Shown one piece after another: positions 6,001 to 9,000 of a stretch of 64,000 nt of DNA. The position numbers were made by a program. Each line of letters starts with the position of its first letter. Position 1 is the stretch's first letter. Origin of the DNA: a plasmid; NCBI RefSeq assembly GCF_057098645.1, contig NZ_JBXSPU010000002.1; one strand, 5' to 3'.

Positions 6001-9000
6001 ATCTTGCAACACGAGAAGCGGAAGAAATCACCTGGCAGCAAGCTTTTGAAATTTTGTCCAAGCCGGGAAGACCTCCATTAAGAGGTTCACTTGGTAAATT
6101 TGATTATTTAAAACTTGTTATTGATGATCTTCGTGCGCGAGGGTATGCCGATTTCCTTCCAGCATACAACCTTGATGGCCTTCGTCACTTTGCAGTAAAG
6201 GATGAGCGACCATCACTTGTCAGTTATATCGACAATGTCATGGCACTTTGCGCATAAAGATAACACATATTTTTACTACATCCCTGATGGCACCTCCCAT
6301 CGGGGTGGCCCTCAGAGGGCTTTGTTGAATAAATCAGATTTCGGGTAAGTCTCCCCCGTAGCGGGTTGTGTTTTCAGGCAATACGCACGCTTTCAGGCAT
6401 ACCTGCTTTCGTCATTTTGTTCAGCGCTCGTACCAGGGCCATAGCCTCCGCAACCTGACCATCGTAGTCACGCAGCGTCAGTGAACCCCCGAACAGCTGT
6501 TTTACCCGGTACATCGCCGTTTCCGCTATCGAGCGACGGTTGTAATCTGTTGTCCATTTCCACCGCGCATTACTCCCGGTCATTCGCTGATTAGCCACTG
6601 CACGGTTACGGTCTGCATATTCACCGGGCCAGTAGCCCGCACCTTTTCGGGGAGGGATAAGCGCGCTGATTTTCTTACGCCGCAGTTCATCGTGACATAG
6701 CCGGGTATCGTAAGCGCCATCGGCGGCGGCTGACCTGATTTTCCGGTGGGTTTGCCGGATTAACCCGGGGAAGGCCTCTGAGTCCGTAACGTTGTTCAGC
6801 GACAGGTCTGCACAGATGATTTCATGTGTTTTACTGTCAACGGCGAGATGCAGCTTACGCCAGATACGGCGGCGTTCCTGGCCATGCTTTTTGACTTTCC
6901 ACTCGCCTTCACCGAAGACCTTCAGCCCGGTGGAATCAATCACCAGATGTGCGATTTCACCCCGGGTGGGCGTTTTGAAACTGACATTAACCGACTTTGC
7001 CCGCCTGCTGACACAGCTGTAATCCGGGCAGCGTAGCGGAACGTTCATCAGAGAAAAAATGGAATCAATAAAGCCCTGCGCAGCGCGCAGGGTCAGCCTG
7101 AATACGCGTTTAATGACCAGCACAGTCGTGATGGCAAGGTCAGAATAGCGCTGAGGTCTGCCTCGTGAAGAAGGTGTTGCTGACTCATACCAGGCCTGAA
7201 TAGCTTCATCATCCAGCCAGAAAGTTATGGAGCCACGGTTGATGAGGGCTTTATTGTAGGTGGGCCAGTTGGTGATTTTGAACTTTTGCTTTGCCACGGA
7301 ACGGTCTGCGTTGTCGGGAAGATGCGTGATCTGATCCTTCAACTCAGCAAAAGTTCGATTTATTCAACAAAGCCCCCTCAGAGTTGAATCTGGAGGTCTT
7401 ATGAAATTAGCTACAGATCTGGTCAATGCGGTTCTGATAAAGAATGGCATTGTACCAACTTCCATTAATGAGTTGCCTGTAACGTCGCTGGTAAAGCCAT
7501 TGACACAAGTGCATCTCAGCCTGTATCTGAAAACAACGCATTTATCTCAGTTCGTCCCTGACTACGTTGAGTCTCTGAAAGATTGTCCGGTTTCGTATGA
7601 TATCGGCCTTGAACTTCAGCAGTGTATCAACAGTGCTGAATTGCTCTGTGAAGACATGGAGTCACTTGAGTTTATCTCTGTATGGATAGAGCTCTATACG
7701 TGTAATTCAAAGCAACAGCGGTTTGAGAAAAGTAACTTTTCTTTTCGAACTGAAGATATCGAGCTGGCTAAGATGCTGTCTTGCTCGCATGAAATCTTAA
7801 TAAGTCAGGCGGCTTGTTTCTGGCTTTTGTATTTTGAAGATTTCATGAAATATGTTCGTAATAGGCTCTGTGCATTACTCAGACAGGTTTTAATTTTGAT
7901 TGCAGGACTGCGAAATGTATACCTGCAACGGAATGAAGATCAGTTGATTAAGAGAGTTAAGCACGGGAATGAAATGCTGGAGGTGACTCTTAAAGCTGTT
8001 GCACTATGTTCAATAGAAAGGTATCTGAAATCATATGCCTCTTTACGAACAGAAGCGGCGGCTTCTGGGTTTATCAAATGCATTCAGTCTTATATCAGTA
8101 CTGGTTGGAGACATGGCTATATAGTCTGTCAATATTCAAAAAATGGACGGTCTCTTGGTAAGTCATTACCACTTTTTATAAAAGAGACATCTGAGCATAA
8201 TATACAGAAACGTGTCAATCGCCTTATATCTTCCACGATTTCGGGGCGAAATAAAGATTTAGGTCTTTACGATTTCTGATTAACATTACCCATCCGGGGA
8301 TTACATCCCTGATGGGTGTAATCCCATTTTTTATTTAAGTGAGGATTACATGAAAATTATTGAGAAAATCATTAATGCATTTCTGATATCGCGTAAACAT
8401 TCAGTGAAGGTCAGTAATGTTATCTGCTTGAGTGGCACCGACGGTAAATTTACTGGAATATGCTGTGACGCCGATGTTTCATTTGATTTTCTTTATTCGT
8501 ATGCCCCCGCATACAGTTCAACATTTTTAGATATCCCGTTTCCTGGGTTTGAAGACCAGGACATCGCGGATTGTGTTAAATGTCAGTTAGATGTAGTTAA
8601 AAATAAACGGAATCGGTCTTTTTTAATTGACCATATTAGATTTCCAGTTTCCTCAAGGGAAGGATTCACTCTGACACGCGGTGATAGTTACGACGTGACT
8701 GAATGTGAATATAATAAGGAACGATTGCTACATCTGACCCGACAAGGACGTTTTTGTGAAGACTATCTCACGTTCAAGGATGGCCTGAGTTCCTTCTTTT
8801 CATTTGTGAATTTCGAATTACATGAAATAGTGAAGGAAGGTATACGTTTGGCACTTGATGTTTTAAACAAGATTACATCTGATCAACCAGACCGTCTTAT
8901 AAAAGACTTTAAGTATCATGATTGCTTCGGCAGTTATAATGTACAAATATTTTCTAAGGGTCTGCCAGTTGATATCCTTGAAACGATGATTGCACCTGAT

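What the first reader, a model, noticed from the sequence alone, without database searches (positions are those of the whole stretch)
6309..7383. IS903 insertion with intact 9-bp target duplication splits the structured leader of the 7401 gene
IS903 (6318-7374) is flanked by identical CCCTCAGAG copies, indicating a simple transposition not followed by rearrangement. The duplicated target is the anti-SD-like arm immediately upstream of the SD GGAGG of gene 7401, so the 5' part of the leader is now 1.06 kb away while the anti-SD/SD pair stays intact. This could lock the gene off, or place it under an outward IS promoter.
Basis: seen in the sequence. Interest (0 to 1): 0.55.

Follow-up and report, generated by a model that had tools for sequence, protein, structure and literature searches.

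The report
IS903B insertion splitting a plasmid leader
A common jumping gene (IS903B) has recently inserted between two genes of an IncHI1 resistance plasmid; this is an ordinary event that probably silences the gene downstream, but it cuts one copy of a repeated RNA leader structure that I could not find described anywhere.

Summary
Window 6318-7374 is one intact 1,057-bp IS903B. It has perfect 18-bp inverted repeats and an intact IS5-family transposase on the minus strand, and it is flanked by identical 9-bp copies of CCCTCAGAG. Related IncHI plasmids, including R27, carry the uninterrupted site with a single CCCTCAGAG and are exactly 1,066 bp shorter. It is therefore a simple, recent transposition. 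This exact junction was absent from every collection searched.

All nine intercistronic leaders of this gene array share one three-part design: a GC-clamped hairpin (S) that contains a copy-like mimic of the Shine-Dalgarno (SD) region (X), then an anti-SD (X'), then the SD itself (X''). The three parts co-vary between leaders and between plasmid lineages, as far away as a Shewanella plasmid. Rfam has no matching family.

The duplicated 9-mer is the core of the anti-SD of the gene at 7401. After insertion the SD-masking hairpin remains next to the gene, 2.6 kcal/mol weaker. S and X now lie 1.06 kb upstream.

Loss of expression through polarity plus an unopposed SD mask is the most likely effect. 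An outward IS promoter is not supported. As an IS event this is ordinary; the leader family is the interesting part.

The parts
6309..6317 (.). Left copy of the 9-bp target-site duplication, CCCTCAGAG. It is also the upstream copy of the anti-SD core (X').
   Evidence: (D13). The empty site has a single copy (L001).
6318..7374 (-). IS903B (IS5 family, IS903 group), 1,057 bp, complete. Its transposase is antisense to the gene array.
   Evidence: 100% identical to annotated IS903B copies. Length and ends.
6318..6335 (+). Terminal inverted repeat at the 3' end of the transposase gene (IRR), GGCTTTGTTGAATAAATC.
   Evidence: 0 mismatches.
7357..7374 (-). Terminal inverted repeat at the 5' end of the transposase gene (IRL). 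It abuts the leader of gene 7401.
   Evidence: 0 mismatches.
6374..7297 (-). Transposase ORF, 307 aa from GTG 7297. PGAP aa from TTG 7342.
   Evidence: NF033579, 357.6 bits, cutoff 140.
7375..7383 (.). Right copy of the target-site duplication. It is the anti-SD core (X') that remains next to the SD.
6282..6305 (+). S hairpin of the 7401 leader: CCCTGATGG [CACCTC] CCATCGGGG. The SD-mimic X (CUGAUGGC, about 6284-6291) sits in its 5' arm. It is now 1.06 kb from the gene.
   Evidence: Folds; hairpin scan; X:X' duplex of -15.0 kcal/mol. The covariance model scores the split leader at 22.1 bits, against 36.1 bits for the intact ortholog.
7389..7400 (+). SD region X'' (TCTGGAGGTC, with GGAGG at 7392-7396). 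It pairs with X'.
7401..8279 (+). Downstream gene (292 aa) of unknown function, restricted to IncHI-type plasmids.
   Evidence: No Pfam or NCBIfam match. Thirteen representative clusters among 1.84 billion. The structure model (pLDDT 83.7) has no convincing PDB match.
5733..6257 (+). Upstream gene (174 aa) of the same array. Its stop codon lies 24 nt before the S hairpin.

Best explanation
One active IS903B copy transposed, recently and without further rearrangement, into the 77-nt intercistronic leader between genes 5733-6257 and 7401-8279. These genes belong to a conserved backbone array of IncHI plasmids (AAA ATPase, DUF3150, VWA, toprim and several unknown genes). The staggered 9-bp cut fell on CCCTCAGAG, the core of the leader's anti-SD element, so that element is now present twice.

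Shown:
- the identity of the element, its intact ends, transposase and target duplication;
- the empty site in relatives;
- the three-part leader architecture and its co-variation.

Inferred:
- The array is co-transcribed. Transcription from upstream must now cross 1,057 nt of untranslated RNA antisense to the transposase gene, so it is subject to Rho-type polarity.
- Any transcript that does reach the gene carries the SD-masking hairpin X':X'' but has lost the S hairpin and the SD-mimic X. In the intact design X can compete for X'.
- The net effect is therefore reduced or abolished expression of 7401, with probably reduced expression of the genes downstream. It is not activation.
- The loss is tolerated, because the same array is interrupted by IS elements in several other plasmids.
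For: Insertion:
- Element, ends, target duplication and transposase.
- Empty site exactly 1,066 bp shorter, with one CCCTCAGAG.

Leader:
- The minimum-energy fold of the intact leader is the S hairpin plus the X':SD hairpin, z = -2.58.
- Nine leaders of the same design lie in the window, all on the + strand directly 5' of start codons, and none elsewhere in the 64 kb.
- The S helix is 90.5% paired, 4 of its 9 pairs change on both sides, and 0 of 500 shuffles reach the observed covariation score.
- Cognate duplexes are stronger than non-cognate ones. X:X' is -13.6 against -8.4 kcal/mol (sd 2.2). X':SD is -12.0 against -6.9 kcal/mol (sd 2.8).
- The same holds in plasmids not used to build the model.
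- One leader shows a triple compensatory change: GGGGATTACA / TGTAATCCC / GAGGATTACATG in IncHI1 against GGGGATCACA / AGTGATCCC / GAGGATCACATG in IncHI2.

After insertion:
- The hairpin goes from -10.0 to -7.4 kcal/mol and the SD stays about 80% paired.

Polarity and operon:
- No promoter-like site lies in any leader, and the only strong + strand terminator is at 12468-12495.
- No outward promoter was found.
- The IS + strand has C-rich, G-poor stretches.

Tolerance:
- Independent IS903B insertions lie in the array in three other plasmids, each with its own 9-bp duplication. R27 has IS2 there, and two further plasmids have an IS3-family element.
Against: - There are no expression data.
- Co-transcription of the array is inferred only from gene order, short spacers and the lack of consensus promoters. 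Non-consensus or H-NS-controlled internal promoters cannot be excluded.
- In the thermodynamic test the 7401 leader, unlike about half of its siblings, did not open its SD when the 5' arm of S was blocked (0.24 to 0.25). Losing X may therefore change little for this particular gene.
- The SD mask is weaker after insertion, which would if anything raise translation of any transcript that reaches it.
- A weak promoter-like pair on the + strand (TTGTCG, 16 nt, GATCCT at 7311-7338, 7 of 12 matches) could give some transcription.
Confidence: 0.7

Rival explanations
1. The insertion is functionally neutral for 7401. Either each gene of the array has its own non-consensus promoter in or near its leader, or read-through across the IS is sufficient. 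Because the SD/anti-SD hairpin is retained, translation continues much as before.
For: Predicted SD accessibility is the same before and after insertion, about 0.2. Blocking S does not open the SD in this leader. No strong intrinsic terminator lies on the + strand inside the IS; there is only one weak 5-bp candidate at 6720-6733.
Against: No promoter-like site lies between the IS and the gene, and only 26 nt remain. A 1-kb untranslated insert in an operon is classically polar (established knowledge of IS1 and IS2 polar mutations). The conservation of X, X' and X'' together argues that the upstream part matters.
Confidence: 0.18
2. The IS activates 7401 through an outward or hybrid promoter at its end near 7374, freeing the gene from the control of the native operon.
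For: Some IS903-group elements in Paracoccus carry outward promoters (PMC3281130). A weak 7-of-12 promoter-like pair lies at 7311-7338. The SD mask is 2.6 kcal/mol weaker after insertion.
Against: - No + strand site reaches 9 of 12 matches anywhere in 5400-8400.
- In the possible hybrid, TTCAAC and TTGAAT are only 15 nt apart. It would start transcription inside or after the SD.
- The documented outward promoters are at the 3' end of the transposase gene, which here faces the other way.
- The papers retrieved for IS903B describe it mainly as a cause of gene inactivation.
Confidence: 0.08
3. The insertion is an assembly artefact: an IS copy placed wrongly by the assembler.
For: The exact junction was found in no other record. 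IS903B is highly repetitive in these hosts.
Against: A perfect 9-bp duplication of a sequence that is single-copy in relatives, with the flanks otherwise 100% identical and exactly collinear, is the signature of real transposition. Misassembly does not produce it.
Confidence: 0.02

Closest known systems
IS903 / IS903B (IS5 family, IS903 group; the flanking element of Tn903)
   Same: 1,057 bp long, 18-bp perfect terminal repeats GGCTTTGTTGAATAAATC, a single DDE transposase ORF and a 9-bp target duplication. It is 100% identical to annotated IS903B copies.
   Different: Nothing in the element itself differs. Only the insertion site is new. The target fits the published preference WTTYA-N9-TRAAW poorly: the left flank GGTGG matches 1 of 5 positions and the right flank TTGAA matches 3 of 5. 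TGAAT, one nt further on, matches 5 of 5 (motif from PMC2577343; sequence).
Classical polar IS insertions in operons (IS1 and IS2 in gal and lac)
   Same: An IS sits between cistrons of a same-strand gene array, and downstream expression is expected to fall through termination in untranslated insert RNA (established knowledge).
   Different: Polarity was not measured here, and the operon structure is inferred rather than shown.
SD-sequestering leaders with a competing upstream element (ermC-type translational attenuation; the repZ/repA activator pseudoknot of IncI/IncB plasmids; SD-masking RNA thermometers)
   Same: An anti-SD pairs with the SD, and a third upstream segment can pair with the anti-SD instead. 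The default fold masks the SD.
   Different: - There is no leader peptide, no antisense RNA partner and no known ligand.
- The competitor is a near-copy of the SD region embedded in a GC-clamped hairpin.
- The device is repeated before at least 9 consecutive genes.
- No Rfam family matches.
- The trigger is unknown.

Membership tests
IS903 group of the IS5 family | Length of about 1,057 bp with 18-bp terminal inverted repeats GGCTTTGTTGAATAAATC | tested here: met
   6318-7374 is 1,057 bp. Both repeats have 0 mismatches.
IS903 group of the IS5 family | A single intact IS5-family DDE transposase ORF | tested here: met
   307-aa ORF. NF033579 scores 357.6 bits against a cutoff of 140. The DNA is 100% identical to PGAP-annotated IS903B.
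IS903 group of the IS5 family | A 9-bp target-site duplication | tested here: met
   CCCTCAGAG on both sides. It is single-copy in the empty site.
IS903 group of the IS5 family | Preferred target WTTYA-N9-TRAAW | tested here: not met
   The flanks are GGTGG and TTGAA (1 of 5 and 3 of 5 matches). This is a preference, not a requirement (motif from PMC2577343).
SD-sequestering translational leader | An anti-SD segment complementary to the SD and predicted to pair with it | tested here: met
   Minimum-energy fold. X':SD duplex of -11.1 kcal/mol. About 80% of the SD is paired.
SD-sequestering translational leader | Pairing maintained in evolution (covariation) | tested here: met
   Cognate duplexes beat non-cognate ones in IncHI1, HI1B, HI2, Klebsiella and Shewanella plasmids. 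A triple compensatory change is seen. For the 7401 leader itself only 6 lineages are available, and they show mostly one-sided changes.
SD-sequestering translational leader | A demonstrated effect on translation | not testable with these tools
   Needs reporter fusions with compensatory mutations.
IS with an outward or hybrid promoter | A promoter at the IS end reading into the adjacent gene | tested here: not met
   No + strand site with at least 9 of 12 matches. The best has 7 of 12. This is a consensus scan only; activity was not measured.
Any Rfam family (leader RNA) | A covariance-model match | tested here: not met
   No hit with E <= 1 on any leader in window 1-14000.

The most novel reading that the evidence does not exclude
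The IS has cut one member of an undescribed, widespread family of cis-regulatory mRNA leaders ('triad leaders').

- Each leader is a GC-clamped hairpin carrying a mimic of the SD region, followed by an anti-SD, followed by the real SD.
- The design is repeated before nearly every gene of a long backbone array in IncHI-type (MOBH, MPF_F) plasmids, from Enterobacteriaceae to Shewanella.
- Most likely it gates translation of each cistron on an event that opens the upstream hairpin.
- Because the target duplication copies the anti-SD itself, this plasmid is a natural mutant in which the mimic and the SD each face their own copy of the anti-SD.
Probability: 0.5. Interest if true: 0.65.

Novelty: new member of a known kind. 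Interest (0 to 1): 0.3.

Why it matters
In itself the finding matters little. IS903B insertions are routine polymorphisms of resistance plasmids, and the affected gene has no known function.

Its value is indirect.
- It shows, together with three other independent IS903B hits, an IS2 hit and IS3-family hits, that this conserved IncHI backbone array can be lost without killing the plasmid.
- It draws attention to a repeated, co-varying leader design with three elements that is absent from Rfam and that I did not find in the literature searched.
- If that design is a translational gate for plasmid backbone genes, it would be a new regulatory layer in a clinically important plasmid group.
- The IS-split copy would then be a ready-made separation-of-function allele for testing it.

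Tried and rejected
- Rfam at E <= 1 over window 1-14000: nothing on any leader.
- Pfam and NCBIfam on the 7401 protein and its neighbours gave no informative family for 7401. Two sequence searches found only a tiny IncHI-restricted family.
- BLASTP of 7401 against its neighbour 8350 gives E = 0.18, so I do not call them paralogs.
- A search for this exact insertion elsewhere found it absent from 72,556 plasmids, 5,426 E. coli genomes and 100,044 species-representative genomes. NZ_AP027830.1 looked like a full match but has the IS inside the 7401 gene instead.
- Outward and hybrid promoter scans were negative.
- The fixed-column covariance alignment worked for helix S. It gave only 49.6% pairing for X':SD because the register differs between leaders. 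I replaced it with cognate against non-cognate duplex energies.
- Direct ribosome-mediated coupling as the universal trigger is rejected. The stop-codon-to-hairpin distance varies widely: 6, 9, 9, 20, 23, 24 and more than 100 nt.
- An H-type pseudoknot with S and X:X' coexisting is rejected for most leaders, because X' follows the 3' arm of S with no spacer.
- Hu & Derbyshire 1998 (PMC107802) is not held in the library, so the IS903 target motif is quoted second-hand.
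Full report
**1. The observation**

Reading the window directly gives ...CATCGGGGTGG-CCCTCAGAG-[GGCTTTGTTGAATAAATCAG ... CGATTTATTCAACAAAGCC]-CCCTCAGAG-TTGAATCTGGAGGTCTTATG.
- The repeat finder reports CCCTCAGAG at 6309-6317 and 7375-7383 (D13).
- The 18-mer GGCTTTGTTGAATAAATC occurs exactly twice in the 64-kb window, in inverted orientation at 6318-6335 and 7357-7374, where 0.01 matches are expected by chance. The element is therefore 1,057 bp long and is the only copy in the window.
- It is 100% identical to several copies that RefSeq annotates as "IS5-like element IS903B", and at least 5,000 plasmids carry a copy covering at least 80% of the element, nearly all at 90% identity or more.
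- Its ORF on the minus strand runs from GTG 7297 to the stop at 6374 (307 aa). PGAP uses the upstream TTG at 7342. The ORF scores 357.6 bits on NF033579, "IS5 family transposase", whose cutoff is 140.

**2. The empty site**

The backbone is an IncHI1 plasmid.
- Dozens of listed plasmids match window 4200-10300 at 100% identity over a span of 5,035 bp, which is exactly 6,101 minus 1,066, that is the IS plus one 9-mer.
- In pYPE10-190k-tetX4 (L001) the site reads ...GGGGTGGCCCTCAGAGTTGAATCTGGAGG... with a single CCCTCAGAG.
- An 801-bp query spanning the empty site matches at 99% identity or more in 219 plasmids, R27 among them at 100%. Of 1,399 records with a match, 1,395 cover at least 80% of it in one place.

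This proves a target-site duplication and a simple insertion with no later rearrangement.

The exact junction was found nowhere else: not in PLSDB, not in complete E. coli genomes and not in GTDB species representatives. The one apparent full match, NZ_AP027830.1, has its IS903B inside the 7401 ortholog instead.

**3. Orientation and promoters**

The transposase gene is antisense to the gene array. The IS end that touches the 7401 leader is therefore the 5' end of the transposase gene.
- The consensus scan finds no sigma-70-like site on the + strand anywhere in 5400-8400.
- A relaxed scan of 7150-7400 gives at best 7 of 12 matches (TTGTCG, 16 nt, GATCCT at 7311-7338).
- In a possible junction hybrid, TTCAAC and TTGAAT are only 15 nt apart. 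It would start transcription inside or beyond the SD.
- The only experimental evidence I found for outward promoters in the IS903 group comes from Paracoccus elements. It places them at the 3' end of the element (PMC3281130), and here that end faces away from 7401.
- The papers retrieved for IS903B describe it mainly as a cause of gene inactivation.

The outward-promoter reading is therefore unsupported, though activity was not measured.

**4. The leader is real and is one of a family**

The reconstructed 77-nt spacer folds into two hairpins, with z = -2.58 against shuffles:
- S: CCCUGAUGG[CACCUC]CCAUCGGGG.
- A second hairpin, GGCC(C)UCAGA[GUUGAA]UCUGG(A)GGUC, that buries the GGAGG.

Looking at the neighbouring spacers showed the same plan before every gene of the + strand array except the toprim gene. 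The plan has three parts:
- a hairpin S with CCC/GGG clamps;
- a segment X' just after S that is complementary to the SD and start region (X'');
- a segment X, formed by the inner part of the 5' arm of S plus its loop, that is also complementary to X'. X is thus a near-copy of the SD region.

A hairpin scan and a covariance model built from 26 leaders find nine copies in the window: 537-603, 1746-1808, 3822-3892, 5670-5735, the split one at 6279-6324, 8286-8352, 9305-9365, 10290-10358 and 11405-11470. All are on the + strand and end at a start codon, and there are none elsewhere in the 64 kb. The split copy scores 22.1 bits, against 36.1 bits for its intact ortholog.

**5. Evidence that the pairings are selected**
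- Helix S is 90.5% paired, 4 of its 9 pairs change on both sides, and 0 of 500 shuffles reach the observed covariation score.
- The register of X':X'' differs between leaders, so fixed columns fail (49.6% paired). I compared cognate with non-cognate duplex energies instead. X:X' is -13.6 against -8.4 kcal/mol (sd 2.2). X':SD is -12.0 against -6.9 kcal/mol (sd 2.8). The cognate partner ranks first or second in most cases, and IncHI1B and IncHI2 give similar results.
- Orthologous leaders show compensatory changes in all three elements at once. One example is GGGGATTACA / TGTAATCCC / GAGGATTACATG in IncHI1 against GGGGATCACA / AGTGATCCC / GAGGATCACATG in IncHI2.
- The model also finds leaders, each ending at an annotated ATG, in Klebsiella IncFIB/HI1B plasmids, in pSW25KPC2, in an unplaced NCBI assembly and in a Shewanella aestuarii plasmid. 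The cognate test holds in the Klebsiella (L009) and Shewanella (L011) plasmids, which were not used to build the model.
- Rfam has no matching family, and four literature searches found no description.

**6. How the leaders might work (inference)**

Free leaders fold as S plus the X':SD hairpin, with the SD 1-45% unpaired. When the first 5-7 nt of S are made unavailable, about half of the leaders switch to the X:X' hairpin and the SD opens to 50-80% unpaired. So the design can act as a gate that opens when S is disrupted.

The trigger is unknown. A terminating ribosome cannot be the general answer, because the distance from the stop codon to S ranges from 6 to more than 100 nt. In some leaders the X:X' hairpin is followed by a U-run and looks like a terminator (8297-8325), so a transcriptional component cannot be excluded.

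**7. What the insertion did to the 7401 leader**

For this leader X is CUGAUGGC, in the 5' arm of S. X' is GCCCUCAG, which is the duplicated 9-mer. X'' is CUGGAGGUC. The same complementarities are present in IncHI1B, in both IncHI2 plasmids examined and in two more distant lineages, L013 and L014.

After insertion:
- The upstream fragment keeps S, X and one X'.
- The downstream fragment keeps the other X' and the SD. The two outer pairs (GG with UC) are replaced by the IS-end CC, so the hairpin drops from -10.0 to -7.4 kcal/mol.
- Predicted SD accessibility is unchanged, at about 0.2 unpaired.

The statement "the pair stays intact" is therefore nearly right. The upstream competitor has been removed, which fits "locked off".

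One caveat applies. This particular leader did not open in the blocking test even when intact (0.24 to 0.25). The translational consequence of losing X may therefore be small.

**8. Transcription**

No leader contains a promoter-like site, and promoter-like hits in 1-13200 are fewer than in shuffles. The only strong + strand terminator after the array is at 12468-12495.

I therefore infer co-transcription. It follows that RNA polymerase must cross 1,057 nt of untranslated RNA that contains C-rich, G-poor stretches (C/G up to 1.8). Polarity of IS insertions in operons is established knowledge, but it was not measured here.

My best estimate is reduced or lost expression of 7401 and weaker expression of the downstream genes (confidence about 0.7).

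**9. Is the loss tolerated?**
- Three other plasmids carry independent IS903B insertions in the same array, each with its own 9-bp duplication (GACTGCGAA, TGTCAGCAG, GGTAGGGTG) and all in the same orientation as here.
- R27 has IS2 in the last array gene.
- Two further plasmids have an IS3-family element.

The genes are evidently dispensable for plasmid survival.

What 7401 does remains unknown.
- It has no Pfam or NCBIfam match.
- Only 13 representative clusters exist among 1.84 billion proteins.
- The confident AlphaFold model (pLDDT 83.7, pTM 0.76) has no convincing PDB neighbour.

**10. Comparison and verdict**

The element meets every defining feature of IS903/IS903B that I could test: length, terminal repeats, transposase and 9-bp duplication. 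The target fits the published preference WTTYA-N9-TRAAW poorly (PMC2577343), but that is only a preference.

As an event this is an ordinary, recent IS polymorphism at a previously unrecorded site, which I rate as a new member of a known kind, with low interest.

The surrounding triad-leader family is the notable thing. It works like known SD / anti-SD / anti-anti-SD devices (ermC attenuation, the IncI/IncB rep pseudoknot, RNA thermometers), but it lacks a leader peptide, an antisense partner and a known ligand, and it is repeated before many consecutive genes.

Noticed in passing
window 537-603, 1746-1808, 3822-3892, 5670-5735, 6279-6324 (+7375-7403), 8286-8352, 9305-9365, 10290-10358, 11405-11470 (+ strand): There is a family of nine intercistronic 'triad' leaders. 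Each has a GC-clamped hairpin containing an SD-mimic, then an anti-SD, then the SD, and the three parts co-vary. No Rfam family matches and no description was found in the literature searched.
   Followed up: yes
L009 (K. pneumoniae IncFIB/HI1B), L010 (pSW25KPC2), L011 (Shewanella aestuarii pPN3F2_1), L013 (GCA_016771845.1), L014: The same leader design precedes many genes of the homologous array in distant MOBH/MPF_F plasmids, with at least 12 copies in the Shewanella plasmid. There the array also includes ssb and a DNA adenine methylase gene.
   Followed up: partly
L002 3650-4706, L003 5390-6446, L004 5803-6859; L012 (R27) 2662-3890: Three other plasmids carry independent IS903B insertions inside genes of the same array, each with its own 9-bp duplication. 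All four insertions, counting the window, have the transposase antisense to the array. R27 itself has IS2 in the last array gene. The array is a repeated and tolerated IS target.
   Followed up: partly
window 8297-8325: In the leader of gene 8350 the alternative X:X' hairpin (GGGATTACA...TGTAATCCC) is followed by ATTTTTTATT, so it looks like an intrinsic terminator. The U-run is kept in the IncHI1B and IncHI2 orthologs. Several other leaders also have T-rich tracts right after X'. A transcriptional component to the switch is possible.
   Followed up: no
window 7362-7368 / 7383-7389: The target sequence just 3' of the duplication (GTTGAAT) is identical to 7 nt inside the IS terminal repeat. The junction therefore creates a 7-bp complement, ATTCAAC...GTTGAAT. 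TGAAT also matches the TRAAW half of the published IS903 target motif, one nt out of register.
   Followed up: no
window 11462-11470: The ORF lister starts the last array gene at GTG 11462. The leader alignment and the PGAP orthologs (957 nt) point to ATG 11468 as the real start.
   Followed up: partly
window 12468-12495: A strong intrinsic terminator (AAGAAGGCACGG TTAT CCGTGCCTTTTT followed by more T) lies right after the last array gene. It is the only convincing + strand terminator in 1-13200, which is consistent with the array being one long transcription unit.
   Followed up: no
window 4112-4204: The spacer before the toprim gene is the one spacer without a triad leader. Instead it has a different long-range pairing, GTGGGTTTCTC...GAGAAACCCAC, which overlaps the start codon and is conserved in IncHI1B and IncHI2.
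   Followed up: no
window 7401-8279: The 292-aa product belongs to a very small protein family restricted to IncHI-type plasmids. Its predicted mixed alpha/beta fold is confident but has no recognisable relative in the PDB.
   Followed up: partly
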